DNA from: Acidimicrobiia bacterium UBA5794 | GTDB lineage: Bacteria > Actinomycetota > Acidimicrobiia > Spongiisociales > UBA5794 | Assembly: GCA_002418265.1 (NCBI GenBank) | Contig: DIDS01000014.1 | Location: 72,588-136,587, forward strand | Direction of reading: 5' to 3' | DNA: 64,000 bases | In this document: piece after piece, positions 25,736 through 64,000 of the stretch | Layout: every line of letters starts with the position of its first letter | Position numbering within the stretch: the first letter of the stretch is position 1 | Notes under the pieces: model-generated | Seen by the model: only the letters and a program-made list of their open reading frames with translations | Told to the model about the DNA's origin: nothing | Database searches by the model: none | Made by a program: the position numbers and the translations under genes

Positions 25736-25836
25736 GTCAGACGTCAGACGTCAGAGAGCCCCCCTGCCCCTCGCTGCGCTCGGCGCGTCCCCCCGCAAGC
25801 GGGAGGACGGGAAGAAGAAGTCAGACGTCAGAAACC
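25736..25836. repeat. Composite intergenic repeat: (GTCAGAC)x3, GC-rich hairpin module, (GTCAGAC)x2
   Basis: gtcagacgtcagacgtcagagAGCCCCCCTGCCCCTCGCTGCGCTCGGCGCGTCCCCCCGCAAGCGGGAGGACGGGAAGAAGaagtcagacgtcagaa; sits in the divergent LCP/typA promoter region. Confidence 0.8.
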
Positions 25837-43040: not shown

Positions 43041-43754
43041 CTATTTCTTCAATACGAGTCGAATCGCCACAATCGCGGCTTCATACAAGATGTAGAGCGG
43101 CACGGCGAGCATCATCAGGGTGAGTGGATCCCCGCTGGGGGTGATGACGGCTGCGGCAATGAGGATCAAGACAATGGCCCACCGGCGGTTGGAGCGAAGG
43201 GTCTTGCTCGTCAGCATGCCGAATGCGGCGGCGGCGAAGAGGAACACCGGGAACTGGAATGCAATCCCGAACGCGAGAAGGAACCGCATTGCAAATTTCA
43301 GGTAGTAGTCGGCACCGATGACAGGAACAAGGGCGTCCCCTCCAAAGCCAAGGAGAAAAACCAGTCCACGCTCGAGCGCCAGATACCCCACGAACACGCC
43401 AAGAAGAAAGAGAAACGCAAGGACAGCGACGATCGGAATGACCCAGCGTTTTTCACGCTTCGACAACGCAGGTTCGACGAACCGCCACACCTGATAGGTG
43501 ATGACAGGGCTCGCAAGGATTGCCCCTCCCCACAGCGAGAGACGCATCACGACGCTGAACGCTTCGGTCACCTTGAATGTTGCAAGGGCAGCATCGGGAT
43601 CGAGCTTGCGATACGGTTCGACGAGCAAGTCGAGAATCTGCTCATTGAAGATGAAAGCGATCACCGTTCCGATGCCGAGAGCGATGACGGACTTGATGAG
43701 CCGCTGGCGCAGCTCCACGAGATGTTCGGAGAACGGCATCGTCGTCGCCGTCAT
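43041..43754 (-). CDS. tatC: Twin-arginine translocase subunit TatC
   Basis: Six-TM TatC with EHLVELRQRL near the N-terminus. Confidence 0.9.
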   Translation of the reverse strand: MTATTMPFSEHLVELRQRLIKSVIALGIGTVIAFIFNEQILDLLVEPYRKLDPDAALATFKVTEAFSVVMRLSLWGGAILASPVITYQVWRFVEPALSKREKRWVIPIVAVLAFLFLLGVFVGYLALERGLVFLLGFGGDALVPVIGADYYLKFAMRFLLAFGIAFQFPVFLFAAAAFGMLTSKTLRSNRRWAIVLILIAAAVITPSGDPLTLMMLAVPLYILYEAAIVAIRLVLKK

Positions 43755-44116
43755 GACTCGGCCTCTCCGTCTTCCTCATCCTGAGATGGAACTTCGGCGA
43801 CTGGTTCAGCCGTCCCGAAACCGACACGATTTGGATCTGAACCGCTCAGGTTGGTGTCCAACATCTCGGTAAAGCTGTTGCCGGCCTGTTTCAGATCATC
43901 CTTGATTCCCTGAAGATCATCTCTGGCGGTCTTGATCGGATCGGCTGCATCGTGCCACTCGCCGGAGATCTCCTCGACAAACTGGGAGGTTGCCTGACGA
44001 GCCTTGGAGAGCAGCTCCCCCATCTTGCGCGCAAACTCCGGCAGTCGGTCGGGTCCAAAGATGATCAGGATCACAACCACGATGGTCACGATCTCTGCGA
44101 AAGAAAGACTGCCCAT
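43751..44116 (-). CDS. tatA: Twin-arginine translocase subunit TatA/TatB family
   Basis: TM segment followed by an amphipathic helix (IVTIVVVILIIFGPDRLPEFARKMGELL). ATGA overlap with tatC. Confidence 0.75.
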   Translation of the reverse strand: MGSLSFAEIVTIVVVILIIFGPDRLPEFARKMGELLSKARQATSQFVEEISGEWHDAADPIKTARDDLQGIKDDLKQAGNSFTEMLDTNLSGSDPNRVGFGTAEPVAEVPSQDEEDGEAES

Positions 44117-44141: not shown

Positions 44142-44275
44142 ACCTTCAGGGAGGCGTGCGAGCCAGCGAACCCCGTCAGTCCGACGTCGGAAAGCCCCCC
44201 TGCACCTCGCTGCGCTCGGCGCGTCCCCCCGCAAGCGGGAGGACGGATATGGGAGAAAGCTGAAAGCTCTCTAAC
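44142..44275. repeat. Composite repeat: GCGTGCGAGCC...CCCCGTC box, short GACGTC element, GC-rich hairpin module, (AGCTGAA)x2
   Basis: ggaggcgtgcgagccagcgaaccccgtcagtccgacgtcggaaAGCCCCCCTGCACCTCGCTGCGCTCGGCGCGTCCCCCCGCAAGCGGGAGGACGGatatgggagaaagctgaaagctctc. This is nearly the same arrangement as 2341-2452. Confidence 0.8.
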
Positions 44276-44840
44276 CCTTCGGAGCCCATCGTGGGTAGTC
44301 GATTCCAGCGGTACGGTTGATGACAAATCCCTGCACGGTGAGCAATACGACTGCAAGCATCAGCACCGCAAGGTCGCGCGGGGTTGTGAGAATCCCGAGC
44401 GAAACGATCAGCGTGGTGGCACCGGCAGGGGGATGGGGCACCCTGAACCACACCATCAACCCTGATGTCAGCCCGAGCGACAGAGCGGCAGCCCCGACAC
44501 GGGCAAGAGTCACTTCAGTGGCGAGCGCGGGAGCTGCGTCAGTCAGACCGAATATCACCAGCGACAGGTAACCGGCGCCCGCTCCGATCCCGTGGCCCAG
44601 GATAGCGTTCCTTGGTGAGGCCGCCGGGTTCGTCGGAGTGTAGAAGAACAGAAATGCAGTGGGGCCAAGCGACGGAAAAACGAACGGGCTTCCGGTCAAC
44701 AAGGCCGCCATCGACATGATTCCGATTGACAACACGCCGTTGGCGAATGCGAACAGGCCCATCACCGTCGTCGAAGAGTGGCGCTTCACGAGATACGGGA
44801 TCTGCATCCGGCTTGCAAGGCCAAACACGATTGCATTCAT
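44271..44840 (-). CDS. HPP-family membrane protein (family includes nitrite transporters)
   Basis: HPPAGATTLIVSLG motif with four or more TM helices. Start at MNAIVFG with a GGGGGA SD. Confidence 0.7.
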   Translation of the reverse strand: MNAIVFGLASRMQIPYLVKRHSSTTVMGLFAFANGVLSIGIMSMAALLTGSPFVFPSLGPTAFLFFYTPTNPAASPRNAILGHGIGAGAGYLSLVIFGLTDAAPALATEVTLARVGAAALSLGLTSGLMVWFRVPHPPAGATTLIVSLGILTTPRDLAVLMLAVVLLTVQGFVINRTAGIDYPRWAPKG

Positions 44841-44883
44841 CTGTCCCCCGATGGGACCCGTTGAATCGCGTTTGAACTCCGGT

Positions 44884-45087
44884 TCAGTCACGTCGCGGCA
44901 GCACCCTGTAGAACAACACGGCGCAGATCGCCAAGCCGGTGGAAACGGCCGCGGCGGTCCAGCCGAGCTGCGGATCATGCGTCATGTACGCCTCAGCCGC
45001 GATCACGAGAAGGAACAGTTGGAGACTGACGATCAACACGACGAGAGCAAGGAGCGCAGTGCTTCCAGCCGACTTTCGTTTGGCCAT
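44884..45087 (-). CDS. Small two-TM membrane protein, unknown function
   Basis: 67-aa ORF whose ATG overlaps the Rieske gene stop (ATGA). Hydrophobic: LLALVVLIVSLQLFLLVIAAEAY. Confidence 0.35.
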   Translation of the reverse strand: MAKRKSAGSTALLALVVLIVSLQLFLLVIAAEAYMTHDPQLGWTAAAVSTGLAICAVLFYRVLPRRD

Positions 45088-45605
45088 CAGTGACTGCCTC
45101 CCGAAATGCCGACCGCCCATACCTCGCGGTCCCGAATGACCGTGTCGATACGGGTCAGCGGTCGTTCGGGTGGACCCGCTATCGCTTCACCCGCAACGCT
45201 GAAGAACCCTTCATGACAAGGACATTCGAACTCGAAGGTCTCGATGTCCCAGAACACCACACATCCGAGGTGCGTGCATTTCTGGCTGAAAGCAACGACC
45301 TCGTTGAGTTCGGTCCGGACGATGATTGCGGGATCCTTGTCCGTCGGGTACCGGAACAGTTTGCTTCGGCCCGGCGGGATGTCATCGATGGACATGATCA
45401 GTCTTTCAGGTCCGACGTTGGCCGGTCGAAGTGATGCTGCGAGAGCCATCAGTCCACCGCTTCCTGCAAGGGCAATGGACGCGTACGCCAAAAACCGCGT
45501 GAACTCTCGACGCGTGACCTCGTCTTCGCCCGCACTTTCATACGGAAAGTCCTTCTTCCATTGTGGATCGTCCACCGGTTGATCGGCTGTCGGCTGATCG
45601 GTCAC
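45087..45605 (-). CDS. Rieske [2Fe-2S] protein with twin-arginine signal / membrane anchor
   Basis: Box I CTHLGC and box II CPCHEG. Tat motif TRREFTRFLAY followed by a hydrophobic stretch. Best start is GTG at 45605 (GGAGGTGAT SD, 1 nt after the ferredoxin stop); the alternative ATGs at 45632 and 45656 overlap the ferredoxin gene. Confidence 0.8.
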   Translation of the reverse strand: MTDQPTADQPVDDPQWKKDFPYESAGEDEVTRREFTRFLAYASIALAGSGGLMALAASLRPANVGPERLIMSIDDIPPGRSKLFRYPTDKDPAIIVRTELNEVVAFSQKCTHLGCVVFWDIETFEFECPCHEGFFSVAGEAIAGPPERPLTRIDTVIRDREVWAVGISGGSH

Positions 45606-45606
45606 A

Positions 45607-46224
45607 TCACCTCCCAAGTCCGAAAGGATCATCTTGCCACTGGGTCGGTTTCTCACCGATCGTGATCATGACCGGTCCAGGCTCGCTGACCACGGCTGCA
45701 ACCTTTGTGCGTACGGTCTGGCGTCCGAATTGCCAATTCCGTACCAGCGTGCCAGTGCGCTTTGCTGAGAACTCCTCGTCGGATCCGTACCACAACGCCT
45801 CCGATGGACAGACGGACGCACACATCGGTTTCAACCCTTCGGAGGTGCGGTCGTAGCACATGTCGCATTTCATCATCTGGTCGAACGACGCAACGTACTT
45901 CGGGATGCCGAAAGGGCAGGCGTACACGCAGTTTGAGCACCCGATACATCGAGGCTTGAGGGAGGACTGGACGACACCAGACTCGTTCTGTTTGATTGCG
46001 TCAGCTGGGCACACCTCAGCACAGGTCGGGTCTTCACAATGCATGCACACGAGCGGGACGGTCTGTGTCGAAATCGCCCGATCAATCGTATCCAACTGGA
46101 TCAGGGAGACTCCGCGGTGGGTGTCACACTCGGCACAGGCAGCAACACAGGCACGACAGCCGATGCACCGGCTCTGATCGATGGCAAACACCGCCGTTGC
46201 CGGGTCATAGCCGCTTTGGATCAT
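45607..46224 (-). CDS. 4x[4Fe-4S] ferredoxin-type electron-transfer subunit (NrfC/HybA/DmsB-like)
   Basis: Four Cys clusters: [40 protein letters not shown] and CDMCYDR...CASVCP. No Tat signal and no TM segment. Confidence 0.85.
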
Positions 46225-48449
46225 TGGTCACCCTGCAACGTGAGGTCGCGGTCGTCGAGCAGGTCGCGGCGACCTGTGCCCTTCGCCACCTTGACGGCGC
46301 TGACCTTGTATTCCGGAATACCCGAGATCGGATCGATGGCACGTTGCGTCAGAAGATTTGCCGACTTGTCACTTGGCCAGTGATACGGGATGAAAACGGT
46401 ATCTGGTCGAATCGTCTCGACAACCTTTGCCGGAGCCACCATGGTTCCACGCCGCGAGGTGATGCGCACGATGTCGCCGTCGGTAACACCCAAATTGGTC
46501 GCAAGTAGGGGGTGCATCTCGCACAGGGGTTCGGGATACTGATCAACCAGTGCTCCGATCCTTCGAGTCTGTGTTCCCGACAGGTACTGGCTCACCACGC
46601 GCCCGGTCGTAAGGTACAGCGGGTAGTCCGAGTCAGGAACCTCGGCCGATTCGCGCCAAGGGGTCGGGATGAACTTCGCCCGCCCGTCCGGGTGGAAGAA
46701 CTTTCCTCCCTCATAGAGCCGTGGTGTTCCTGGATGTCCGATCTCGGGTGCAGGCCAGAACACACCCTGCTCCTTGACGACGCGATCCCACGTGATGCCG
46801 TAGTAGTCGGCAGTCCCGCCACGGGAGGCTCTCCTGAGTTCGTTGAAGATGTCTTCGGTTGTCTCGTAGTCAAAATACTGTTTGGCCCCCAGCCGATCGG
46901 CGATGTCGCAGATGATCTCCCAGTCCCGGCGAGCGTTGCCAGGCGGACTGACCGCAGCATTGATCTTGACGACCCGACCCTCAAGGGTCGTGACCGTACC
47001 TTCATCCTCCTCATGAAGCGAGCCCGGCAACACGACATCTGCGTGTTGGGCGGTCTCGGAGAGGAAGAAGTCGATGTTGACGTAGTAGTCGAGTTTCCCG
47101 AGCGCTTCTCGTGTGAAGTTGGCGTCGGGGAGCGAAACGAGCGGGTTGAAGCAGATCGACAGCAGACCCTTGATCCGACCCGCATGAATCTCATTCATGA
47201 TCTCCTGGGCCGTGAGACCCTTGCCGGGGAGCTGTGACTCTTCGATACCCCATACGTCGGCGATGAAGGCACGATCGTCCGGGTTCTCAATGTTGCGGTT
47301 GCCTGGCAACTGGTCGCATTTGTGGCCGTGCTCACGTCCACCCTGGCCATTGCCCTGTCCGGTGATCGTGCTCACGCCCGAGCCGGGTTTTCCATACTTG
47401 CCGGTCGCCAAGCCGAGATTGATGCATGCAAGAACGTTGTCGACACCCTTCGTGTGGTGTTCAATCCCACGTGCGTGCAGCAGCATCCCCGTCGCTGAGG
47501 TTCCCCAGATCTCGGCTGCTTCTTCGATTCTCGAAGCTGGCACCCCGGACACCCGCGCAGCCCAGTCAAGCGTTGCGCCCGACACGGCTGCTGCGGCCTC
47601 TTCGAAGCCGTTCGTATGGTTGTCGATGAAATCGTGATCGAGCCAATCGCGTTCAATGATGAGGTTGAACATGGCCGACAACACTGCGAGATCGGTACCC
47701 GGTCGGACGCCGAGAAATACGTCGGCGGTACGTGCGGCCGGGGTGACCCGGGGGTCCATGTAGATGAGCTTTGCGCCGTTGTCACGCGCACGCCAGATGT
47801 AGCTGGTTGTGATCGGTGCACATTCCGCGATGTTCGCCCCTGCCACGAACACGACATCGGTGAGAGGGATGTCTGACCAAGGGTTGGCAGCACGATCGAC
47901 GCCGAGCGCCTTCTTTCCAGCCGCACCCGCCGAGACCATGCACAAACGGCCGTTGTAGTCGAGGTTGGCCGTTCCGACGGCGACTCGTGCGAACTTGCCC
48001 ATGAGATACGATTTCTCGTTCGTGAGCGACACACCCGAAAGGACGGCGAAGGAGTCAGCCCCATGTTCGGCCTGGATCCGTTTGATCTCGGACGCGGTGC
48101 GGTCGAGTGCCGTTTCCCAGTTGATCTTCCTGAAGCCCCCAACCGCCGATTCGTCCCGCGCCAGTGGCTCGGTGAGTCGATCGGGATGGCTTCCTTGGAG
48201 ATACCTCTTCACCCCCTTGGGGCACAACTTGCCCTCGTTGAATGGGAAGTCGTATCGCGGTTCGAAACCGACGACCTTGTTGCCTGACACCTTCAACTTG
48301 ATGCCGCATTGCTGACCGCAGAAACAGCAATGCGTATCAACGACCTTGTCGATCTCGATCCCGGCGTCCCATCCCCCCGGTGGTGTACGGTTGAGATTCG
48401 GCCCATACGTGGCAATGAGCTGCTCTTCTGTGACGGGTGTCATCGCCAT
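46221..48449 (-). CDS. Molybdopterin (bis-MGD) oxidoreductase catalytic subunit, Nas/Nap-type nitrate-reductase-like, cytoplasmic
   Basis: N-terminal [4Fe-4S] motif [10 protein letters not shown]...GKLCPKG, Mo-ligand region [13 protein letters not shown], and [15 protein letters not shown]. The C-terminal MoCo-binding domain has [10 protein letters not shown]...IPYHW. No Tat signal. Start at MAMTPV (ATG 48449). Confidence 0.85.
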
Positions 48450-49498
48450 CAGCCGAACCCCCCAACCCGTGCCACTTGTGCCAATCCGACAACCCGACGC
48501 CTGCATTTGGGGCACACATCCTGATAGTGCTCTCCTGACTCGAACGAGTAGTCGAAGCCAACAGCAGGAAGCACCGCTTTGAGATCCTCCATCTGGAGAA
48601 CGCTTGCAAACCCTTCCCCGCATTGAATGCAGGTCTGCTCCCCGGTTGCCTCCGCAGCCTCCTTGTAGAACGACACCCCGATGTTTGCTGGTCGCTGGAA
48701 GATGTGGAAGAGCTTTCCGAACGGGATGTAGAGCAGCCCCAAAATGACCGTGAGGGCGTGCAGGTTCGTGATGAACGCGTAGAACTGTCCTCCCATCCAC
48801 AAACTGGATGCCGTCAGCATGAGCCCGGTGATCGATACCGCGAACAATCCGACCAAAGGTGCAAAGTCGGATGCCCGTTCGAGTGCAATAGCGCCGCGGT
48901 CACGCATCCGTCTGATCAAGAAAATCGCCACACCGGCGATGACGAGAAAGGCTGCGATGTTGAGCAGGTGGAACACCATGAAGCCGAAGAAGCCGCGCGA
49001 ATCGAATTGGATCGTTGCAAAGGGTCCGAGAAATGCTTCGTAGAGCCGTCCGCTCTCGTCCGCCGATTCGAAGTGGAGCCAACCGAACGTCAGGGGAAAC
49101 GTCACGAGCGCGGCGAGGACGCACCCCCAGAAAAGCAACTGGTGCGCAACCCACCTGACCTTGCTCCTCCCCGCGATGAAACGCTGCAGGAGGATGTTGT
49201 TGACCAGCTTTCCGACGAGGCCCACGGCATTTGACCCCCGTCGGCCTTTGGCCCGCATCGCCTCCCACCCGCGGCTGTTCAACATTGCCGTGGGAGGACG
49301 TCGAAGCCACACGATGTAGCGATACGCGGTCGCGAACACCGCAAGTACCGTTCCGAACAGATACGGGGCAAGTGCCGGATCGAACCATTGCAGACCACTC
49401 GAACCGATGTACACGCCAATGAGAACGAGGACCACCAGAATCGACCCAACGACGACCCCCCGTCGGTCGACTCTCGATGGTGTGGATGCAATCCCCAT
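48449..49498 (-). CDS. NarI-like (nitrate reductase gamma fold) membrane cytochrome b fused to a C-terminal CxxC...CxxC zinc-ribbon
   Basis: Five TM helices with conserved His residues, and C-terminal CIQCGEG...CPKCRRR. The stop overlaps the Mo-subunit start (TGATG). Start uncertain: ATG 49498, or GTG 49567, which would use the end of the repeat module as its SD. Confidence 0.7.
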
Positions 49499-49569
49499 GG
49501 AGAGAACCCTAGCTCTCAGCACCCAGCTCCCAAGCGGGAGTTGGTCCCCTTGTCCTTTGTCTCCCACAC

Positions 49570-49660
49570 CCGTCCTCCCGCTTGCGGGGGGACGCGAGGA
49601 GCGAAGCGACGATGCAGGGGGGGGCAGTCCGACTTCTGACTTCTGACTTCTGACTTCTGG
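49570..49660. repeat. GC-rich hairpin module (inverted orientation) plus (GACTTCT)x4 heptamer array
   Basis: ccgtcctcccgcttgcggggggacgcgaggagcgaagcgacgatgcaggggggggcagtccgacttctgacttctgacttctgacttctgg. Confidence 0.8.
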
Positions 49661-49661
49661 C

Positions 49662-51029
49662 TTACAGGCCTCGCATCAAGAACGCGGCAGCTTGTTCCCG
49701 TGTCAAGGTTTCGGTCGCTCCAAAGCTCCCATCCTCGTGGCCGAGGGCGATCCCGAGCTCGTGGGCAAGTTCAATCTTGCCCACAAGGGGATGATCGGGA
49801 CCGATGTCGGTGAAGTAGCCCTGATACTGGGGATAGTTGGTCTTGCCAAGGGCATCCATCAGCACCGAAACAAGGAAGCCCCGTTCCCCTGGCGAGCCGC
49901 CATCAAATGGGCCTCCAGCGCGAAGCGCTCCAATTTCAACAAGGTACTCGACCGATCCGACAAACCAGGCGTCTGAGGACACGTCGTTGAAGTACGCCCG
50001 ATACGACGGGTAACTCTTCTCGCCGCCGACGGCTCTGGCAATCATCGTCGCTGCCTGTGCGCGCGTAACCGTAGCCGCGGGACAGTATGAGTTCCAGGTG
50101 CATCCAATCGTTATTCCCCGCGCTGCCATCTGTTCGATCTGTGCTTCGGCGTACGAGCCGTCGTCGTCAACGAATGTGCCCTCATAGGTGCCAACACGCG
50201 ACGTATCCGATACCACGCCGTGAGGACCGAAATCGACCACCACATCATGGATTCCCGGTTCGGTGTTCCCATCCCACCAGACAGCCTCGGTGCCGGATCC
50301 GGTGTGCGTCCAAACGACCTTTCCGGACCCCTGGCGAATCTGGATCGTCCAGTTCACGATCGCATCGGCTTCAATGTTGAGCGTCCCACCTTGGGGGGCC
50401 GCGACCGTTTTGAACGATCCGAAGTCGACCGAGAATTGTGCATCGATCTGTTCGGCGGGAACCGCGGCGAGGAGGTAGGGATTCGGGTCCACGGGCGTGC
50501 CGTCGGGCTGGTGATACTCGAAGTGAAGATGAGAGCCAACGTTCTCGGCGTTGCCGGAGTCGCCGACCCAGCCAATGAGTTGTCCTGCCGAAACGCGGAC
50601 TCCGGGCGCAATGCCTTCGGCGATTCCCCAACCCGCACCGTCGTCGGTTCCGGGTGTGTCGTTGTTGAGGTGGATGTACCACGACTCCCAGCCATCGTCG
50701 TGTGTGAGAGCAATCGTGCAGCAACGATCGGGGTTCAGGTTGCCGGGATCCGAACTCCAATTGACGTACCGGATGACACCATTGGCTGCGGCGACAACCG
50801 GAGTCATCTTGGCTGCCATCAGATCGTCGCCTTCGTGGTAGCGGCTACAACCGGCCCGACATGCGCCAAAGTTGTCCGTGTTGTTGACCTTGCCGACGAC
50901 CGGGAAGACGAGGGGAAGATCCTGGGTAACTGCCTTGGCCGGTGGTGGAGCCAAGACGATGATGGTGGCAAGGGCTGTCAGCGCAACAATGGCCGCCACA
51001 GCCCCGAATTGCCTCTGGGAGCGGGCCAT
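49662..51029 (-). CDS. Secreted M23-family metallopeptidase with C-terminal S-layer-homology (SLH) domains
   Basis: Signal peptide, M23 motifs (HEGDDLMAA...HLHFEYH), and two or three SLH-like repeats (FNDVSSDAWFVGSVEYLVEIGAL; FTDIGPDHPLVGKIELAHELGIALG). Confidence 0.8.
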   Translation of the reverse strand: MARSQRQFGAVAAIVALTALATIIVLAPPPAKAVTQDLPLVFPVVGKVNNTDNFGACRAGCSRYHEGDDLMAAKMTPVVAAANGVIRYVNWSSDPGNLNPDRCCTIALTHDDGWESWYIHLNNDTPGTDDGAGWGIAEGIAPGVRVSAGQLIGWVGDSGNAENVGSHLHFEYHQPDGTPVDPNPYLLAAVPAEQIDAQFSVDFGSFKTVAAPQGGTLNIEADAIVNWTIQIRQGSGKVVWTHTGSGTEAVWWDGNTEPGIHDVVVDFGPHGVVSDTSRVGTYEGTFVDDDGSYAEAQIEQMAARGITIGCTWNSYCPAATVTRAQAATMIARAVGGEKSYPSYRAYFNDVSSDAWFVGSVEYLVEIGALRAGGPFDGGSPGERGFLVSVLMDALGKTNYPQYQGYFTDIGPDHPLVGKIELAHELGIALGHEDGSFGATETLTREQAAAFLMRGL

Positions 51030-51132: not shown

Positions 51133-52218
51133 CTATTGGACGGAGACCGCTTGGACGTCCAGTTCTGTTGCCTTGATCGAGACCCACACGGCAACACCCG
51201 GCACCAGTTCGAGAGAACGCGCCGACTCAGTTGTTACCTCGGCTATGAGAGCGAGGGGCGACGAAGTCGCAACCCGCGCGGTGTCCCCAAGCGGCTCAAT
51301 GTGGGCGATCGTCGTCTTCCACGTGTTCCTCGGACTGCCTTCGGGTTTGACGCGATGGAGCGCAACAGCCCTCGGGTGAAAAGTGACGATGACCTTGCCC
51401 GATACATCGTGGGCCGGCATGTAGAGGTCGTGACCGTCAACGTCGACGACTCCGTCCGCAGCTGTTCCCTCAAAGAGGTTCATGCCAGCGAGGTCAGCGG
51501 CATAGCGCGACTGGGGATTGAGCCGAATGTCGGCTGCCGTACCAGACTGACTGACCAGCCCTTCTTCAAGGATGCAAATTTCGTCCCCGAGCAAGAACGC
51601 CTCGGTCGGATCATGGGTGATCACGAGAGCCGGACCGTTGTACGAATTGAGGAACTCGGCGATGGTTCTTCTGGCGTGCGCCTTGGTTGTGACATCGAGC
51701 GATCCGAGAGGCTCATCAAGAATGAGAAGTCGTGGATCAGTCACCACGGCGCGAGCAAGGGCGACCCGCTGAGCCTCACCGCCCGACAGCTCGGCTGGTC
51801 TGCGTTCAGCCAGATCCGTGAGCCCGAGGCGATCCATCCACACATCCGTGCGCGATGCTGCATCGCCCTTCGAGATGCCAGTGCTCCGCAGCCCGAAAGC
51901 GATGTTGTCCCTTACGCTGAGATGTGGAAACAACAGACCGTCCTGGAACATGACACCGATGCCGCGTTGTGCCGGAGGAACGAACACACCTTGGTCTGTG
52001 TCTTCAAGGACCACTCCGCCAAGTTCAACCCTCCCTTCATCAATCGGTGAAAGCCCAACAAGGGCAGCGACGAGCGTCGACTTTCCTGCACCATTCGGGC
52101 CGAGAACGGCCAGAGTGGATCCGGAGGCGATCTCGATGGCCACATCGAGCCCGAACCCCTCGCTGCGAGCCACCTTGATGTCGGCCGAGAGTCCTTCGTT
52201 CTTCACGACACCCCCCAC
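51133..52218 (-). CDS. modC: Molybdate ABC transporter ATP-binding protein with C-terminal TOBE domain
   Basis: Walker A GPNGAGKST, signature LSGGEAQRVALARA, C-terminal Mop/TOBE domain. Confidence 0.85.
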   Translation of the reverse strand: MGGVVKNEGLSADIKVARSEGFGLDVAIEIASGSTLAVLGPNGAGKSTLVAALVGLSPIDEGRVELGGVVLEDTDQGVFVPPAQRGIGVMFQDGLLFPHLSVRDNIAFGLRSTGISKGDAASRTDVWMDRLGLTDLAERRPAELSGGEAQRVALARAVVTDPRLLILDEPLGSLDVTTKAHARRTIAEFLNSYNGPALVITHDPTEAFLLGDEICILEEGLVSQSGTAADIRLNPQSRYAADLAGMNLFEGTAADGVVDVDGHDLYMPAHDVSGKVIVTFHPRAVALHRVKPEGSPRNTWKTTIAHIEPLGDTARVATSSPLALIAEVTTESARSLELVPGVAVWVSIKATELDVQAVSVQ

Positions 52219-53009
52219 CAGCGATCACGAAGAAGAACCAGCACCGCGAGCGAAACGGCAACCATGACGAGGCTCATTGCGATCGCGGCGTTGCGGTTCG
52301 ATTCAAGTGCAACAAACACCGCGAGGGGCATCGTCTGGGTACGCCCTTGAACGTTGCCAGCAAAGGTCAGCGTTGCCCCGAACTCACCGAATGCCCGCGC
52401 CCAGGTAAGCGCCAATCCGGAAGCGAGCGACGGCATGATCAGGGGAATGGTCACACGCCGAAGAACCGTCCATCGTCCGGCACCAAGTGATTCGGCAGCT
52501 CCTTCGTACCTCCCGTCAATACTCCGCAGACCCGCTTCGACGGTGATCACGACAAAGGGCATCGCGACGAACGTGACCGCAACGATGACACCCCATATCG
52601 AGAATGGCAGGACGATACCGGTAGCGTCATACAGCGGCCCACCAACCACGCCTCTCCTTCCAAGGGCGAACAGCAGGGCGGCACCGCCGACCACCGGGGG
52701 CAGAACGATCGGGAGGAGTACCAGTGCACGAACGAGACTTTTGCCACGGAAGTCCGTCCTTGCCAGCAAGAACGCGATCGGGACACCGATGCAAAAAGAA
52801 ATCAAGGTTGCGGCAACCGATGCGACAAGCGAAATCTGAAGGGCATCAAGCACAACATCGTCAGCGAGAAGTGAACCGAGGTCACTCCATGGCGTTCGGA
52901 TCAGGAGACCAATGATCGGTAGGGCAAGGAACATGACGCCAACAACCCCAAGAGCCATGATCACGATCGGTGGGCGTTCGGTCCGATTCCAGCGTTGACG
53001 TCGGTTCAT
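52203..53009 (-). CDS. modB: Molybdate ABC transporter permease
   Basis: ModB/CysT-type permease core (LLPIVLPPVVGG...). Confidence 0.85.
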   Translation of the reverse strand: MNRRQRWNRTERPPIVIMALGVVGVMFLALPIIGLLIRTPWSDLGSLLADDVVLDALQISLVASVAATLISFCIGVPIAFLLARTDFRGKSLVRALVLLPIVLPPVVGGAALLFALGRRGVVGGPLYDATGIVLPFSIWGVIVAVTFVAMPFVVITVEAGLRSIDGRYEGAAESLGAGRWTVLRRVTIPLIMPSLASGLALTWARAFGEFGATLTFAGNVQGRTQTMPLAVFVALESNRNAAIAMSLVMVAVSLAVLVLLRDRWWGVS

Positions 53010-53022
53010 GATTGCTGCGGTG

Positions 53023-53799
53023 TCATGGGAGCTCGAATCCGAACGAGGCGAGAATCTCACGGCCGTCATCTGACATCACGAATGCAACGAACGCGGCAGC
53101 CACACCGGATTCGTCGGCTGAAACGACAGCAATCGGGTAGCGCACATCCACATTGTGCTCGTCGGGAATCAGAATCGAGTCAACCGAACCGGCCGCCGCA
53201 ACCACATCGGAGGTGTAGACGATCCCTGCATCAATCTCTCCCGATTCAATCTTGAGCGTCAGGGACCGGACGTTTGGTTCCTCGGTGTCCACCGACGCCA
53301 CAACACCGGCTGATGCGAGAGATTCGCGCGCATATGACCCACAGGGCACGGCTGGAAGGCATAGGCCTATGAAGAGGTTTTCGTTCCCGAAATCCTCAAG
53401 CCCTGAGACGGAGGCAGGGTTGCCGGGAGGGACGGCGATCACGACACTGTTGAGGGCAAACGTCTGGACCGGACCGGTAGCAGCATGCCAGTACAACACA
53501 TCTTCCATGGCTTCGCTGTTGGCCGATGCGAACACATCCACCGGTGCACCCTCGATGATCTGTGCAGCGAGACTGTTCGATCCGCCCGAGTTGATGTCGA
53601 CCACGACACCTGGCACTTGGGTTTCAAAGTCGGACGCAATCTCCTGAAAGGCCGGTTCGAGCGATGCGGCAACGGAGACCAACAATGTTGAGGTTTCCTT
53701 GTTGGTTGAGCATCCTGCAACGATTGCTGCGCACAGCGCAAGGACAACGGCGACGCGGGCGACTCCGGTTGCGGTCGCGGTTGGTCGGGCTCGGTGCAT
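53023..53799 (-). CDS. modA: Molybdate-binding periplasmic lipoprotein
   Basis: Lipobox VAGCS, and ModA-type SBP motifs (SLEPAF, GAPVDVFASA). Confidence 0.85.
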   Translation of the reverse strand: MHRARPTATATGVARVAVVLALCAAIVAGCSTNKETSTLLVSVAASLEPAFQEIASDFETQVPGVVVDINSGGSNSLAAQIIEGAPVDVFASANSEAMEDVLYWHAATGPVQTFALNSVVIAVPPGNPASVSGLEDFGNENLFIGLCLPAVPCGSYARESLASAGVVASVDTEEPNVRSLTLKIESGEIDAGIVYTSDVVAAAGSVDSILIPDEHNVDVRYPIAVVSADESGVAAAFVAFVMSDDGREILASFGFELP

Positions 53800-58635: not shown

Positions 58636-58662
58636 CGTCTGACGTCGGAGGTCGGACGTCAG
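58623..58662. repeat. Palindromic heptamer array (TCTGACG)x3-ggaggtcg-GACGTCAG that supplies the stop codons of both convergent genes (ABC exporter on +, mobB on -)
   Basis: gtctgacgtctgacgtctgacgtcggaggtcggacgtcagtg. Confidence 0.8.
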
Positions 58663-59228
58663 TGGGCGGCGCTTGCGGTGGGGTGCGTGCAGGCGAGCCC
58701 CGCGATGAATCCGGCGATTGCCGACACGGCAGTGGGATCGAGTACGGGAACACTGACCGACCAACTCGCATCACTCACGATCGCAGAAAGCTCGGTCGGG
58801 TCGCATAGAAGATCGTTGCTGTTGTCGGCTCTGTGTACCTCGATCTTGGGGTAGGTCGATGACCGTCCTCCCTCGATGAGCACAAGGTCAGCGTCGGCCA
58901 TGTGTGCACAAACAACCGCGTCGATGTCGGGTGAGCGGCTCGGCGCCCGAAACACTGCGACCTGTACCGGACTCATCCCGACCACAACTTCGGCACCGGA
59001 ACGAGAGAAGCGATCGGTGTCCTTGTCTGCCAGGTCAAACGCACTGCTGCGATGGTGGTGCTTGATCACCCCAACTCGGAAACCGCGGTGCGCGAGATTC
59101 GGAACCAGTGCCTCGATCAAGGTTGTTTTTCCCGATCCCGACCGGCCAACGATGGCAACGACGGCCGGTGATGTTTCGCCGTACCCGCCGAACAAAGGAA
59201 AGATATCGCTCTGGCCATTTGACATCAT
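58659..59228 (-). CDS. mobB: Molybdopterin-guanine dinucleotide biosynthesis adapter protein MobB
   Basis: P-loop VAIVGRSGSGKTTL and MobB-type VIKHHH. Start at MMSNGQ with an AAGGAGG SD. Confidence 0.8.
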   Translation of the reverse strand: MMSNGQSDIFPLFGGYGETSPAVVAIVGRSGSGKTTLIEALVPNLAHRGFRVGVIKHHHRSSAFDLADKDTDRFSRSGAEVVVGMSPVQVAVFRAPSRSPDIDAVVCAHMADADLVLIEGGRSSTYPKIEVHRADNSNDLLCDPTELSAIVSDASWSVSVPVLDPTAVSAIAGFIAGLACTHPTASAAH

Positions 59229-59353
59229 TCCGCCTCCTTGGTCGTGGGCCGTAGCCTGCGAGTCCACACAGTAGCCATCGAGAATCTATTTATGAGTTGG
59301 AATCATATGAACTACGAAACTGTGCTAACGTACCACAGCGAACGGAGGCCCAT

Positions 59354-63141: not shown

Positions 63142-64000
63142 TGGCACAGGTACACAACTGGCATCTCGGTCGTGACATGGAGTACCCGTACACCGGTGGC
63201 ACGTATGACCGGCAGTTCGCCGCCGTATTCAACATCAACCGATGCATTGCGTGTCAGACATGCACGATGTCGTGCAAATCCACATGGACCCACTCCCCCG
63301 GTCAGGAGCTCATGTGGTGGAACAATGTCGAAACCAAACCCTACGGTGGCTATCCGACCCATTGGGATTCACGATTGCTCTCCATGCTCGAGACGGCAAA
63401 CCCCGGTGGCCAGACCTGGACCAAGGAACCGGGCCCAACATCTGCCCCGTATGGCCAATTTAGTGGGCAGACCATTTTTGAGGCCGCAGACCTCGGTCAA
63501 CGCGTCCTCGGCTACATCCCAGAAGAGAACGATTGGAAGGCACCAAACCGCTTTGAGGACCACGCAACCGGCGCCCCAAGGACCGGTGCATCGCTCCCCG
63601 AGCATGAAGGCTGGTTCTTCTATCTGGCAAGGATCTGCAACCACTGCACCTACCCCGGATGTCTCGCGGCGTGCCCGCGAAACGCCATCTACAAGCGCCC
63701 CGAGGACGGCATCGTGCTCATCGATCAGGAACGCTGCCGTGGCTATCAGAAGTGCGTCGAAGGTTGTCCGTACAAGAAATCGATGTATCGCCCGACAACG
63801 CGAACCTCAGAAAAGTGCATTGCGTGCTACCCCCGAATCGAGGGAAGCGATCCCCTCACCGGCGGTGACCCCATGGAGACCCGATGCATGACAGCCTGCG
63901 TTGGCAAGATTCGGATGCAGGGTCTCGTCAACGTGAACACCGACGGCACCTGGATGAACGAGCCGTCGCACCCCCTGTACTACATGGTGCATGAAGAGAA
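63141..64000 (+). CDS. NarH/NxrB-like Fe-S beta subunit (partial, runs off the window end)
   Basis: N-terminus MAQVHNWHLGRDMEYPY...FNINRCIACQTCTMSCKSTWT...WWNNVETKPYGGYP matches NarH (MKIRSQVGMVLNLDKCIGCHTCSVTCKNVWT...FNNVETKP). Later Cys clusters: CNHCTYPGCLAACP, CRGYQKCVEGCP and CIACYPRIE. The frame stays open to position 64000. It is not in the ORF track because it is truncated. Confidence 0.75.
   Translation, partial: MAQVHNWHLGRDMEYPYTGGTYDRQFAAVFNINRCIACQTCTMSCKSTWTHSPGQELMWWNNVETKPYGGYPTHWDSRLLSMLETANPGGQTWTKEPGPTSAPYGQFSGQTIFEAADLGQRVLGYIPEENDWKAPNRFEDHATGAPRTGASLPEHEGWFFYLARICNHCTYPGCLAACPRNAIYKRPEDGIVLIDQERCRGYQKCVEGCPYKKSMYRPTTRTSEKCIACYPRIEGSDPLTGGDPMETRCMTACVGKIRMQGLVNVNTDGTWMNEPSHPLYYMVHEE

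What the first reader, a model, noticed from the sequence alone, without database searches (positions are those of the whole stretch)
45087..49567. Unusual four-subunit molybdoenzyme module: NarI-like cytochrome b (Zn-ribbon) + cytoplasmic Nas/Nap-type catalytic subunit + 4x[4Fe-4S] ferredoxin + Tat/membrane Rieske
Four minus-strand genes are translationally coupled with 1-4 nt gaps or overlaps (TGATG, ATGA, 1-nt gap before a GTG start).
- The catalytic subunit has Nas/Nap hallmarks (Cx2Cx3C...C N-terminal cluster, RLCMVSA Mo-ligand cysteine, [12 protein letters not shown]) but no Tat signal, so it is cytoplasmic.
- Its partners are not the usual NasB/NirBD, NapB/GH or NarHI. Instead there is a NarI-fold membrane b-cytochrome with a C-terminal CxxC..CxxC ribbon, an NrfC/HybA-like tetra-cluster ferredoxin, and a Rieske protein that carries a twin-arginine motif and hydrophobic anchor like bc-complex Rieske subunits.
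- A Rieske plus b-cytochrome membrane pair feeding a cytoplasmic bis-MGD enzyme resembles the haloarchaeal NarB/NarC idea, but there it serves a periplasmic NarG. I know of no characterised bacterial system with this exact composition, so the substrate cannot be assigned from sequence (nitrate is the best guess).
- The adjacent HPP-family gene belongs to a family that includes nitrite transporters, which supports a nitrogen-oxyanion role.
Basis: partly seen in the sequence, partly recalled or inferred. Interest (0 to 1): 0.8.

Follow-up and report, generated by a model that had tools for sequence, protein, structure and literature searches.

The report
Membrane-bound Nas-type nitrate reductase operon
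This operon joins an assimilatory-type nitrate reductase catalytic subunit to a membrane cytochrome b, a four-cluster iron-sulfur protein, an exported Rieske protein and a nitrite/nitrate transporter; the module is widespread, barely studied and inconsistently annotated, and probably lets bacteria respire nitrate in a way current gene catalogues miscount.

Summary
The unit is larger than reported: six translationally coupled minus-strand genes at 44271-49498. They encode a NarI-like di-haem cytochrome b with a cytoplasmic Cys4 tail, a Nas-type Mo-bisMGD subunit, a 4x[4Fe-4S] protein, a Tat-type bc-like Rieske protein, DUF6755 and an HPP transporter.

The first five genes form a conserved module in at least 562 species genomes of Actinomycetota, Bacillota, Deinococcota and Acidobacteriota. 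In Acidobacteriota the cytochrome is fused to a NarK-type transporter. The catalytic subunits form a clade sister to canonical nirB-linked Nas enzymes and keep 11 of 12 residues diagnostic of nitrate reductases.

Neighbours are nitrate/nitrite carriers and nitrosative-stress or anaerobic regulon genes. They never include nirBD.

Best reading: a quinol-dependent, probably cytoplasm-facing, dissimilatory nitrate reductase, with an outward Rieske centre whose role is unresolved.

Two papers touch it. Heylen and Keltjens (2012) made a passing remark. Wang et al. (2024) named the MopB-FeS-Rieske trio NaoABC and claimed it is an antimonite oxidase. Their nao1 primer maps inside module loci, but context and active site argue for nitrate.

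Sidedness and physiology remain inferred.

The parts
48449..49498 (-). Membrane subunit (349 aa from the ATG; the ORF extends to a GTG at 49567). It is a six-helix NarI/DsrM-like di-haem cytochrome b with N- and C-termini inside, plus a conserved cytoplasmic C-terminal Cys4 domain (CxxCG...CPxC).
   Evidence: - It has no Pfam hit. NCBIfam gives QmoC 1.6e-10 and TmcC 1.5e-7.
- Invariant residues are H119, H142, H177, H247 and H265, and C290, C293, C329 and C332.
- hhalign against NarI gives E=0.006 and aligns H247 with NarI H187 and H265 with NarI H205.
- Lys+Arg counts are about 20 on the inferred inner loops against 2 on the outer loops (read from the sequence).
46221..48449 (-). Catalytic Mo-bisMGD subunit (742 aa), Nas-type, with an N-terminal [4Fe-4S] motif and a Cys-Met Mo-ligand motif. 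It has no signal peptide.
   Evidence: - Pfam hits are PF04879, PF00384 and PF01568.
- NCBIfam NasC scores 818 bits (cut-off 1100), against Fdh-alpha 604 and NapA 285.
- In an NJ tree the module clade (83%) is sister to nirB-linked Nas (96%); together they have 98% support.
- It keeps 11 of 12 nitrate-reductase-specific columns.
45607..46224 (-). Four-cluster [4Fe-4S] electron-transfer subunit (205 aa) of the DmsB/FdnH/NarH class. It has no signal peptide and no transmembrane helix.
   Evidence: - Pfam Fer4_11 at 8.7e-21. NCBIfam DmsB, HybA and FDH-beta hits are all below cut-off.
- The best PDB match is FdnH at 7.7e-24.
- Sixteen Cys lie in four CxxCxxCxxxC(P)-type motifs (read from the sequence).
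45087..45605 (-). Rieske [2Fe-2S] subunit (172 aa, GTG start). It has a conserved acidic/aromatic N-tail, a twin-arginine motif (TRREFTRF), a Gly/Ala-rich membrane helix, and a bc/b6f-type Rieske domain with both disulfide cysteines.
   Evidence: - Pfam Rieske at 1.2e-9. The best NCBIfam hit is PetC.
- The best PDB matches are b6f/bc Rieske proteins (8hn2_A 1.2e-13), followed by AioB.
- The RR motif is conserved in Acidimicrobiia, Deinococcus (SRREFTRFL), Brevibacillus (DRRGFMK) and Acidobacteriota (NRRQFAKFL).
44884..45087 (-). DUF6755 small membrane protein (67 aa, two predicted helices). Its start overlaps the Rieske stop. It is a conserved fifth member of the module.
   Evidence: - Pfam PF20540 scores 26.3 bits against a cut-off of 27 here, and hits clearly in relatives.
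- tblastn finds it in about 35 of 80 loci, and in Deinococcus and Acidobacteriota.
44271..44891 (-). HPP-family membrane protein (206 aa), a putative nitrite/nitrate carrier. It overlaps the DUF6755 gene by 8 nt.
   Evidence: - Pfam TM_HPP at 1.1e-23; gene call.
- It is present after the module in about 38 of 80 loci.
- Elsewhere it is replaced by SLAC1/TehA (15 loci), a NarK-type MFS, or a NarK domain fused to the cytochrome.
49571..49594 (.). Palindromic core of a roughly 75-nt REP-like intergenic repeat, immediately upstream of the operon.
   Evidence: Four copies occur in the window (8 matches counting both strands, 0.11 expected by chance). An alignment shows about 75 conserved nt.
44222..44245 (.). 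Second copy of the same REP-like repeat, immediately downstream of the HPP gene. It marks the 3' border of the six-gene unit.
   Evidence: The hairpin has an energy of -39 kcal/mol and is not followed by a U-run.

Best explanation
The six genes encode a membrane-bound, (mena)quinol-dependent nitrate reductase. It is built from a Nas-type catalytic subunit instead of NarG.

Proposed mechanism:
- Quinol is oxidised at the outer face of a NarI-like di-haem cytochrome b.
- Electrons cross the membrane through the two haems (H247 and H142 or H177 outside; H119 and H265 inside).
- They enter the four-cluster FeS subunit, which docks on the large conserved cytoplasmic surface of the cytochrome. That surface is the TM2-TM3 loop plus the Cys4 tail.
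- Nitrate enters and nitrite leaves through the co-encoded carrier. This is HPP here, and SLAC1/TehA, NarK or a NarK domain fused to the cytochrome elsewhere.

The arrangement would conserve energy as a redox loop, like NarGHI. The Rieske protein is inserted by the Tat pathway with its cluster domain outside. There it most likely forms part of the quinol-oxidising site. DUF6755 is a small accessory membrane subunit.

The physiological role is dissimilatory: respiration or redox balancing under oxygen limitation, with nitrite and NO stress as a by-product. It is not nitrogen assimilation.

Shown here: the identity of each subunit, the conserved synteny, the phylogenetic position, the nitrate-reductase active-site signature, the transporter fusion and the genomic context.

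Inferred: the electron path, the sidedness of MopB and FeS, the role of the Rieske centre and the physiology.

My sub-confidences are: nitrate as substrate 0.85, quinol-linked through the cytochrome 0.8, cytoplasmic active site 0.7, dissimilatory role 0.65.
For: Substrate:
- NCBIfam NasC is by far the best model (818 bits).
- The module MopBs are sister to five nirB(D)-linked Nas enzymes at 39-50% identity, with 98% joint bootstrap.
- Eleven of 12 columns that separate nitrate reductases from formate dehydrogenases are kept in all 13 module sequences. These include Met after the Mo-Cys, Thr in place of the FDH catalytic Arg, and the R-E of GQGGREHG.

Membrane and quinol link:
- NarI homology with both C-terminal haem ligands aligned.
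- Fold matches to NarI and EtfD, and PF02665 hits in relatives.
- The ferredoxin is the four-cluster type found between MopB subunits and membrane anchors.

Cytoplasmic orientation:
- No RR motif on MopB or FeS in four phyla.
- The positive-inside rule places the Cys4 tail and the 45-residue conserved loop in the cytoplasm.
- An anion carrier is adjacent in nearly every locus.
- In Acidobacteriota a NarK-type transporter is fused in frame to the cytochrome N-terminus. All 120 best hits are 686-797 aa, nearly all long enough to carry both domains. The contexts are [NarK-cytb]-MopB-Fer4-Rieske-DUF6755-RIC.

Dissimilatory role:
- No nirB or nirD in 83 module loci.
- RIC/ScdA occurs in 20 loci, Rrf2 in 11 and a globin-like gene in 17.
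- In Paenibacillus mucilaginosus the module sits among Hmp, two Crp/Fnr regulators, PFL and its activase, HCP and an NreABC-like sensor set.
- An NreABC-like set follows the module in Bacillus sp. FJAT-18017.
- Crp/Fnr and NarK flank it in Brevibacillus.
- NnrS and MobA lie next to it in L107.
Against: - The Rieske protein is clearly built for the outer face: a Tat motif conserved in four phyla and disulfide cysteines conserved wherever checked (Acidimicrobiia, Deinococcus, Brevibacillus). In this model it has no necessary role, because NarI oxidises quinol without one.
- A Rieske-led Tat hitch-hiking export of MopB and FeS has a precedent in arsenite oxidase. It would give the Rieske centre a simple in-line function.
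- No experiment addresses nitrate reduction by any member.
- The one experimental paper on what is probably this family reports Sb(III) oxidation and draws the enzyme as periplasmic.
- Absence of nirBD from the flanks does not exclude assimilation with a nitrite reductase encoded elsewhere, as Heylen and Keltjens proposed.
- The window protein itself does not reach any curated cut-off: NasC 818 of 1100, and no PF02665 hit.
- The NJ tree has few taxa.
Confidence: 0.5

Rival explanations
1. Outward-facing enzyme. MopB and the FeS subunit assemble with the Rieske protein in the cytoplasm and are exported together on its Tat signal, as in arsenite oxidase AioAB.

Nitrate is reduced outside the membrane. 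Electrons run quinol -> Rieske -> 4x[4Fe-4S] -> Mo. The di-haem cytochrome b carries the second electron back across the membrane, giving a bc-like Q cycle. This would be a bacterial, Nas/NarI-built analogue of the haloarchaeal pNar with NarB/NarC. The HPP, NarK or SLAC1 carrier would then import nitrite or serve another purpose.
For: - The Tat motif is conserved in four phyla and the disulfide-type cysteines wherever checked. The domain is bc/b6f-like.
- Gene order and translational coupling place the Rieske gene directly after the FeS gene.
- This gives every cofactor an in-line role.
- Wang et al. also draw NaoAB as periplasmic and anchored by NaoC.
- TatA/B and TatC follow the operon in this window.
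Against: - The NarK-cytochrome fusions, and the near-universal adjacency of a nitrate/nitrite carrier, are what is seen for cytoplasmic Nar and Nas, not for Nap.
- About 130 conserved cytochrome residues, including the Cys4 domain, face the cytoplasm, as expected for a docking platform like that of NarI.
- No TorD/NapD/NarJ-type chaperone occurs in any locus.
- The tatAC adjacency is not conserved in 80 loci.
- The nearest relatives of the catalytic subunit are cytoplasmic Nas enzymes.
Confidence: 0.2
2. Assimilatory system. This would be an alternative Nas in which the catalytic subunit draws electrons from the quinol pool, instead of from NAD(P)H or ferredoxin. The nitrite produced is reduced to ammonium by a nitrite reductase encoded elsewhere.
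For: - The catalytic subunit belongs to the Nas lineage.
- Heylen and Keltjens (2012) read the nasC-FeS-Rieske linkage in Bacillus bataviensis this way.
- ModABC lies nearby in the window.
Against: - No nirB, nirD or nirA is found in 83 module loci, whereas every canonical Nas locus examined has nirB adjacent.
- The recurrent neighbours are anaerobic and nitrosative-stress genes: RIC, Rrf2, Hmp, HCP, Fnr, NreABC-like, PFL and NnrS.
- A trans-membrane di-haem anchor is typical of energy-conserving respiratory enzymes.
Confidence: 0.15
3. Antimonite or arsenite oxidase (NaoABC of Wang et al. 2024). The MopB subunit oxidises Sb(III) outside the cell and passes electrons through the FeS and Rieske subunits to the quinone pool, which NarGHI then re-oxidises with nitrate.
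For: - The paper describes the same MopB-4Fe4S-Rieske order with an N-terminal helix on the Rieske subunit, in a Bacillota MAG.
- Expression of 5.5- and 6.7-kb clones in R. palustris carrying narGHI gave 1-23 uM Sb(V) and 13C uptake.
- The 32-nt nao1-R primer matches with 0 mismatches inside the MopB gene of four metagenomic loci, and with 1-4 mismatches in six more. Eight of these ten loci also hold the cytochrome b gene, seven hold Fer4 and Rieske genes, and two the HPP gene. This ties nao1 to this family.
- A Rieske partner is typical of the oxidases Aio and Arx.
Against: - The active site keeps the nitrate-reductase signature and the Mo-ligand Cys-Met. AioA has no protein ligand and a [3Fe-4S] cluster (and my own knowledge of Aio).
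- The paper's tree contained no Nas sequences.
- No ars or acr3 genes lie near any module locus, including those matching the nao1 primer. Those loci carry HPP, SLAC1, NnrS, MobA and FmdE instead.
- NarK fusions make no sense for an antimonite oxidase.
- Yields were micromolar over 8 days, without purified enzyme or a knockout.
- The primer lies on the sense strand at about codon 136 of MopB, downstream of the FS0 cysteines. Whether the nao1 clone carried a complete naoA is therefore unclear.
- An extra nitrate reductase could raise nitrite and oxidise Sb(III) indirectly (my inference).
Confidence: 0.07

Closest known systems
Assimilatory nitrate reductases NasC/NasA/NarB (cytoplasmic Mo-bisMGD enzymes)
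   Same: The catalytic subunit matches in several respects:
- domain order;
- the FS0 Cys motif;
- the DYNGR(L/F)CM Mo-ligand motif;
- nitrate-reductase-specific residues;
- absence of a signal peptide;
- 39-50% identity and a sister-group position.
   Different: - There is no NAD(P)H diaphorase, NirB/NasB, NasG or ferredoxin partner, and no linked nitrite reductase.
- The partners are instead a membrane di-haem cytochrome b, a four-cluster FeS protein and an exported Rieske protein.
- The context is anaerobic and nitrosative stress rather than nitrogen assimilation.
- The score is below the NasC equivalog cut-off (818 against 1100).
Respiratory nitrate reductase NarGHI with NarK
   Same: - The overall logic is the same: a cytoplasm-facing MopB, a four-cluster FeS subunit, a NarI-family di-haem b anchor and a dedicated nitrate/nitrite carrier.
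- The NarI haem ligands H187 and H205 align with H247 and H265.
- The regulatory neighbourhoods are similar (Fnr, NreABC-like).
   Different: - The catalytic subunit is Cys-ligated Nas-type, not the Asp-ligated type II NarG.
- The FeS subunit has 205 aa against 512, and TIGR01660 scores 36 bits against a cut-off of 524.
- There is no NarJ.
- The cytochrome has an extra N-terminal helix and a Cys4 tail.
- Rieske and DUF6755 subunits are added.
NaoABC, proposed nitrate-dependent Sb(III) oxidase (Wang et al. 2024, ISME J, PMC11521347)
   Same: - The three-gene core and order are the same: MopB, 4Fe-4S, Rieske with an N-terminal helix.
- The nao1-R primer maps with 0-4 mismatches inside the MopB gene of ten metagenomic module loci.
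- It is very probably the same family.
   Different: - The claimed function and direction differ: Sb(III) oxidation outside the cell, with electrons going to quinone.
- The cytochrome b, DUF6755, the transporter linkage and the Nas relationship were not recognised.
- No sequences are available, so identity could not be measured.
Haloarchaeal pNar with NarB (Rieske) and NarC (cytochrome b); Rieske/cytochrome b complexes in general
   Same: - A Tat-inserted, disulfide-type Rieske protein is combined with a di-haem membrane cytochrome b and a nitrate reductase.
   Different: - The cytochrome here is NarI-type with six helices, not bc-type cytochrome b.
- The catalytic subunit is Nas-type without a Tat signal, not a Tat-exported NarG.
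- There is no cytochrome c.
Arsenite oxidase AioAB and iodate reductase IdrAB
   Same: - A MopB enzyme is partnered by a Tat-signal Rieske subunit. AioB is the next-best PDB match after the bc/b6f Rieske proteins.
- These enzymes set the precedent for hitch-hiking export.
   Different: - AioA and IdrA belong to a different MopB clade, with a [3Fe-4S] cluster and no Cys ligand. TIGR02693 scores 158 bits here over a partial match.
- They have no four-cluster subunit and no membrane cytochrome b.

Membership tests
Nas (assimilatory nitrate reductase catalytic subunit NasC/NasA/NarB) | N-terminal Cx2Cx3C...C [4Fe-4S] motif, MopB and MGD-binding domains, Cys Mo ligand followed by Met | tested here: met
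   PF04879, PF00384 and PF01568 all hit. [10 protein letters not shown]...CPKG and GRLCMVSA are present.
Nas (assimilatory nitrate reductase catalytic subunit NasC/NasA/NarB) | Residues shared by nitrate reductases and absent from formate dehydrogenases | tested here: met
   Eleven of 12 such columns are kept in all 13 module sequences.
Nas (assimilatory nitrate reductase catalytic subunit NasC/NasA/NarB) | Score above the curated NasC equivalog cut-off (NF047855, 1100 bits) | tested here: not met
   818 bits. It is the best model but falls below the cut-off.
Nas (assimilatory nitrate reductase catalytic subunit NasC/NasA/NarB) | Falls inside the clade of nirB(D)-linked Nas enzymes | tested here: not met
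   It lies in a sister clade (83% bootstrap), outside the 96% clade of five canonical Nas enzymes. The NJ tree has limited sampling.
Nas (assimilatory nitrate reductase catalytic subunit NasC/NasA/NarB) | Soluble electron donor (NasB/NirB diaphorase, NasG, ferredoxin or flavodoxin) and linkage to assimilatory nitrite reductase | tested here: not met
   No NirB or NirD is found in 83 module loci. The partners are membrane-bound.
NarGHI respiratory nitrate reductase | NarG: type II DMSO-reductase-family subunit of about 1200 aa with an Asp Mo ligand | tested here: not met
   TIGR01580 narG scores 57 bits against a cut-off of 1084. The ligand is Cys.
NarGHI respiratory nitrate reductase | NarI-family di-haem b anchor with two His pairs | tested here: inconclusive
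   - The window protein has no PF02665 hit.
- hhalign gives E=0.006 and aligns both C-terminal His.
- Relatives hit PF02665 at about 23 bits.
- Haem binding itself is not testable here.
NarGHI respiratory nitrate reductase | NarH-type four-cluster subunit and NarJ chaperone | tested here: not met
   The ferredoxin has four clusters, but TIGR01660 scores 36 bits against a cut-off of 524. No NarJ-like gene occurs in any locus.
Nap periplasmic nitrate reductase | Tat signal on NapA, with NapB/NapC or NapGH partners and NapD | tested here: not met
   There is no RR motif on MopB. NapA models score 285 bits against a cut-off of 904. No nap accessory genes are present.
Rieske/cytochrome b (bc1, b6f) complexes | Tat-anchored Rieske protein with CTHLGC...CPCH including the disulfide cysteines | tested here: met
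   Scores are below the PetC and QcrA cut-offs.
Rieske/cytochrome b (bc1, b6f) complexes | bc-type cytochrome b (eight helices or split 4+3, with Qo and Qi sites) | tested here: not met
   The membrane subunit is NarI/DsrM-like, with no match to cytochrome b families.
Arsenite oxidase Aio / iodate reductase Idr | AioA/IdrA-clade catalytic subunit ([3Fe-4S], no amino-acid Mo ligand) | tested here: not met
   TIGR02693 scores 158 bits against a cut-off of 359, over a partial match. A four-Cys FS0 motif and a Cys ligand are present.
NaoABC (Wang et al. 2024) | Contiguous MopB, 4Fe-4S and Rieske genes, with an N-terminal helix on the Rieske subunit | tested here: met
   The nao1-R primer lies inside the MopB gene of ten metagenomic module loci.
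NaoABC (Wang et al. 2024) | Sequence relatedness to NaoA, NaoB and NaoC | not testable with these tools
   No sequences or accessions are given in the paper or its supplement, only primers. The nao2 primer found nothing.
NaoABC (Wang et al. 2024) | Sb(III) oxidase activity | not testable with these tools
   This needs biochemistry. Context and active site argue against it as the primary function.

The most novel reading that the evidence does not exclude
The module is a fourth architectural class of prokaryotic nitrate reductase. A NarI-scaffold cytochrome b has independently recruited a Tat-exported, bc-type Rieske protein. Together they form a Qo-like, possibly bifurcating, quinol-oxidation site.

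That site would supply low-potential electrons across the membrane to a cytoplasmic Nas-type catalytic subunit. Such subunits are known to need lower-potential donors than NarG.

If so, a large share of 'nasA/nasC' genes in Acidimicrobiia, Bacilli, Deinococci and Acidobacteriota are respiratory rather than assimilatory. Rieske/cytochrome b chemistry would then have arisen at least twice.
Probability: 0.3. Interest if true: 0.9.

Novelty: new variant of a known kind. Interest (0 to 1): 0.68.

Why it matters
Nitrate reductases are currently sorted into Nar, Nap and Nas. Metagenomic nitrogen-cycle budgets count any Nas-like catalytic gene as assimilation.

This module is found in at least 562 species genomes. 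Its cytochrome family alone comprises 1265 clusters at 50% identity. It pairs a Nas-like subunit with respiratory-type membrane partners and sits in anaerobic and nitrosative-stress regulons. Many such counts may therefore be wrong for abundant soil, sludge and marine lineages.

The cytochrome is annotated as 'MFS transporter', 'hypothetical protein', 'nitrate reductase gamma subunit' or even 'Mg-transporting ATPase'.

The combination of a NarI-type cytochrome with a bc-type Rieske protein also bears on how Rieske/cytochrome b complexes evolved from dehydrogenase anchors.

Finally, the analysis challenges the only published functional claim for this family, antimonite oxidation. It also names cultured, tractable hosts in which the question can be settled.

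Tried and rejected
- Apparent cytochrome-MopB fusion proteins (P0269, P0270, P0290, P0369) would have proved a cytoplasmic MopB. Their sequences are frameshifted read-through of the overlapping genes, so I discarded them.
- The tatA/tatC genes next to the operon are not conserved in 80 related loci, so they are not evidence for export.
- The Rieske/cytochrome b genes in the Caldithrix nap locus are true bc-type proteins serving a Tat-exported NapA. That is a different system.
They found no characterisation other than the two papers cited. One search was wasted because 'NasC' matched 'nascent'.
- The nao2-F primer found nothing in JGI metagenomes. One of the 11 hits of the nao1-R 22-mer (L101) has no module and is presumably a chance match.
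- Rfam found nothing in the window. The REP-like hairpin is no more stable than shuffled controls (z = -1.2) and lacks a U-run, so it is not a canonical terminator.
- The globin-like neighbour reaches only E=0.014 against Bac_globin. I report it as weak.
- I did not use the second structure-prediction job. Single-chain models cannot resolve sidedness.

Full report
**1. What is in the sequence**

Between 44271 and 49498 the minus strand carries six genes joined by overlaps or a 1-nt gap:
- a 349-aa membrane protein (48449-49498; the ORF runs on to a GTG at 49567);
- a 742-aa molybdopterin oxidoreductase (46221-48449, TGATG junction);
- a 205-aa ferredoxin (45607-46224, ATGA junction);
- a 172-aa Rieske protein (45087-45605, GTG start one base after the ferredoxin stop);
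- a 67-aa DUF6755 protein (44884-45087, TGATG junction);
- a 206-aa HPP protein (44271-44891, 8-nt overlap).

The last two genes are additions. Two copies of a roughly 75-nt palindromic repeat bracket the unit (49571-49594 and 44222-44245).

**2. Identity of the parts**

Catalytic subunit. It has the three MopB Pfam domains. It scores best against NCBIfam NasC: 818 bits against a cut-off of 1100, compared with Fdh-alpha 604 and NapA 285. No Nas structure is in the PDB. The nearest solved chains are cytoplasmic formate dehydrogenases and Desulfovibrio NapA.

Ferredoxin. It is a Fer4_11 protein with sixteen cysteines in four motifs. Its nearest solved relative is FdnH.

Rieske protein. It matches b6f and bc Rieske proteins first and AioB second. 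It carries CTHLGC...CPCH with both disulfide cysteines.

Membrane protein. It has no Pfam hit, only weak QmoC, TmcC and HmcE hits. Further evidence for a NarI-like fold:
- A 51-sequence family alignment has five invariant histidines and an invariant CxxC...CPxC tail.
- hhalign of that alignment against E. coli NarI gives E=0.006. It aligns LHALT...PFGKLFHI with the NarI helix V that carries haem ligands H187 and H205.
- An AlphaFold model (pLDDT 82) shows six transmembrane helices, an outer three-stranded sheet and a well-predicted C-terminal domain.
- Several Firmicute members hit Pfam PF02665.

Charge distribution puts the N-terminus, the long TM2-TM3 loop, the TM4-TM5 loop and the Cys4 tail inside. 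These regions hold about 20 Lys+Arg, against 2 on the outer loops.

**3. The module is conserved and widespread**

A scan of one genome per species found at least 562 loci that encode a relative of the cytochrome. In the best 80 loci (mostly Acidimicrobiia, plus Nitriliruptoria and bins labelled Binatia), every locus long enough has cytb-MopB-Fer4-Rieske in that order. DUF6755 is detectable in about 35 of them and HPP in about 38.

The same five genes occur in several other lineages:
- on Deinococcus megaplasmids, followed by a NarK-type transporter;
- in Brevibacillus laterosporus, preceded by NarK and a Crp/Fnr regulator;
- in many cultured Paenibacillus, Bacillus, Cytobacillus and related genera;
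- in Acidobacteriota.

A profile search of 1.8 billion cluster representatives found 1265 clusters at E of 0.001 or better. Source annotations for the cytochrome vary: 'MFS transporter', 'hypothetical protein', 'nitrate reductase gamma subunit' and 'magnesium-transporting ATPase'.

**4. Phylogenetic position and active site**

The nearest non-module relatives in plasmid records are 39-50% identical. They are canonical assimilatory Nas genes lying next to nirB, usually with nirD and narK, in Paenibacillus cellulositrophicus, Skermanella, Candidatus Mycobacterium methanotrophicum and Deinococcus grandis.

In a neighbour-joining tree (696 columns, 300 bootstraps):
- thirteen module sequences from three phyla form a clade (83%);
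- that clade is sister to five canonical Nas enzymes (96%), and the two together have 98% support;
- E. coli NapA with a Hymenobacter fused Nas, a haloarchaeal FdhF-like protein and E. coli FdhF fall outside.

Twelve alignment columns are invariant in the six Nas enzymes and NapA, and different in both formate dehydrogenases. Eleven of these are kept in all module sequences. They include Met after the Mo-ligand Cys, Thr where formate dehydrogenases have the catalytic Arg, and the Arg-Glu of GQGGREHG. The chemistry is therefore very probably nitrate reduction.

**5. Genomic context**

No nirB or nirD homologue lies within 8-10 kb of the module in 83 loci. The recurrent neighbours are instead:
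- an anion carrier directly downstream: HPP, or SLAC1/TehA in 15 loci, or a NarK-type MFS, or a CLC channel;
- the di-iron FeS-repair protein RIC/ScdA (20 loci);
- an Rrf2 regulator (11 loci);
- a weakly globin-like protein (17 loci).

Specific examples:
- In Paenibacillus mucilaginosus the module sits between flavohaemoglobin, Crp/Fnr, pyruvate formate-lyase with its activase and a hemerythrin on one side, and hybrid-cluster protein, Crp/Fnr and a GAF/response-regulator/PAS-HisKA_3 set resembling NreABC on the other.
- Bacillus sp. FJAT-18017 has the same sensor set directly after the module.
- In Acidobacteriota the operon ends with RIC.

This is the signature of an anaerobic nitrate, nitrite and NO regulon, not of nitrogen assimilation.

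**6. The transporter fusion**

In Acidobacteriota the cytochrome is the C-terminal half of a roughly 745-aa protein. Its N-terminal half is best matched by the NarK family model (TIGR00886, 232-234 bits). All 120 best database hits are 686-797 aa, nearly all long enough to carry both domains. Two further divergent fusion clusters exist.

The fusion explains the 'MFS transporter' misnomer. It confirms the N-in topology of the cytochrome. It also ties nitrate/nitrite transport physically to the anchor, as expected if the active site is cytoplasmic.

Apparent cytochrome-MopB fusions turned out to be frameshifted sequences and were discarded.

**7. Sidedness and the Rieske problem**

The Rieske N-terminus carries a twin-arginine consensus in all four phyla: TRREFTRF, SRREFTRFL, DRRGFMK and NRRQFAKFL. 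In each case a moderately hydrophobic helix follows, and the disulfide cysteines are kept wherever I checked (Acidimicrobiia, Deinococcus, Brevibacillus). The cluster domain is therefore almost certainly outside.

MopB and the FeS subunit never carry a signal. Two arrangements remain possible.

(a) A NarGHI-like arrangement, with MopB and FeS on the cytoplasmic platform of the cytochrome and the Rieske domain at the outer quinol site.

(b) Tat hitch-hiking of MopB and FeS on the Rieske signal, as in arsenite oxidase. This gives an outward enzyme with a bc-like Q cycle.

I favour (a), at about 0.7 against 0.3, for four reasons:
- the transporter adjacency and fusion;
- the roughly 130 conserved cytoplasmic residues of the cytochrome;
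- the NarI homology;
- the absence of any export chaperone.

However, (b) explains the Rieske subunit more simply. Under (a) the Rieske centre may make the quinol site Qo-like. This could matter because Nas-type centres operate at lower potentials than NarG (my own knowledge of the cyanobacterial NarB work; not tested here).

**8. Literature**

Heylen and Keltjens (2012) noted that nasC of Bacillus bataviensis is linked to an iron-sulfur protein and a Rieske protein. They suggested 'an alternative, yet functional assimilatory' system.

Wang et al. (2024) named a MopB-4Fe4S-Rieske trio from a Symbiobacteriaceae MAG NaoABC. They placed NaoA next to NapA in a tree without Nas sequences, and drew NaoAB as periplasmic. 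They reported 1-23 uM Sb(V) formation and 13C uptake when 5.5- and 6.7-kb clones were expressed in R. palustris carrying narGHI. No sequences are given.

Their nao1-R primer nevertheless matches exactly inside the MopB gene of four JGI metagenome loci, and with 1-4 mismatches in six more. Eight of these ten loci also hold the cytochrome b gene, seven hold Fer4 and Rieske genes, and two the HPP gene. In these loci:
- neighbours include SLAC1, NnrS, MobA and FmdE, and no arsenic or antimony resistance genes;
- the primer lies on the sense strand at about codon 136, downstream of the FS0 cysteines, which I cannot reconcile with a full-length clone.

NaoABC is thus very probably this family. The Sb(III) oxidase assignment is poorly supported compared with nitrate reduction. 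Indirect Sb(III) oxidation through extra nitrite is a possible reconciliation (my inference).

**9. Verdict**

The module is a widespread and essentially uncharacterised way of wiring a Nas-type nitrate reductase to the membrane.

It is a new variant of a known kind, not a categorically new enzyme. Its interest lies in four things:
- the unprecedented pairing of a NarI-type cytochrome with a bc-type Rieske protein;
- the likely misclassification of many 'assimilatory' genes;
- the conflict with the published NaoABC function;
- the availability of cultured hosts for decisive tests.

Noticed in passing
window 59354-62824 (+), continuing to about 63213-64000: A second molybdoenzyme lies here. It is a 1156-aa MopB with a clear Tat signal (VKKVTRRKFLKG). 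The best model is the type II DMSO-reductase alpha subfamily (316 bits, cut-off 985), with EbdA at 151 and NarG at 124. A NarH-like FeS gene follows and runs off the window. The substrate is unknown. MobB (58659-59267) and ModABC (51133-53799) lie between it and the module.
   Followed up: partly
window 2419-2442, 25786-25809, 44222-44245, 49571-49594: There are four copies of a roughly 75-nt REP-like intergenic element. Its palindromic core is CCCGCAAGCGGGAGGACG, preceded by CAGA(A/C)GT heptamer repeats. Two copies bracket the operon. There is no Rfam match and no U-run after the hairpin.
   Followed up: partly
window 43041-44116 (-): TatA/B and TatC genes lie directly downstream of the HPP gene on the same strand. 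This is suggestive given the Tat-type Rieske protein, but the adjacency is absent from 80 related loci.
   Followed up: yes
L081 15207-16397; L013 4794-6047, and about 12-15 other related loci: A conserved membrane protein of 396-416 aa with no Pfam hit often follows the HPP gene or lies near the module. In L107 a 538-aa neighbour (655-2271) hits NnrS weakly, so a link to the NO response is possible.
   Followed up: partly
L110 6776-7429; L082 17740-18357: An FmdE-family protein with a DksA/TraR-type zinc finger lies beside the module in a 68% GC metagenomic locus and in Deinococcus wulumuqiensis. It may be a molybdoenzyme maturation factor.
   Followed up: no
L095 14566-15226; L097 14566-15139: In Paenibacillus and Bacillus two further small ORFs (about 105-115 aa and 89-108 aa, no Pfam hit) follow the small membrane protein after the Rieske gene. 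They may be lineage-specific subunits.
   Followed up: no
window 48449-48650 (C-terminal 70 residues of the cytochrome): The Cys4 tail has rubredoxin-like knuckles (CxxCG ... CPxC) about 35 residues apart. It matches residues 115-162 of E. coli HycF weakly (hmmsearch E=0.16; Foldseek probability 0.99 over 56 columns). It could bind Fe rather than Zn and act as an extra redox centre.
   Followed up: partly
database proteins P0269, P0270, P0290, P0369: Public protein collections hold chimeric 'cytochrome-MopB' and 'MFS-cytochrome-MopB' proteins. These are frameshifted translations of this operon from error-prone assemblies and could mislead domain-architecture surveys.
   Followed up: yes
window 49662-51029 (-): An M23 peptidase with an SLH domain lies immediately upstream of the operon. 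This is consistent with a cell-wall-anchored protein of a monoderm actinobacterium and is unrelated to the module.
   Followed up: no
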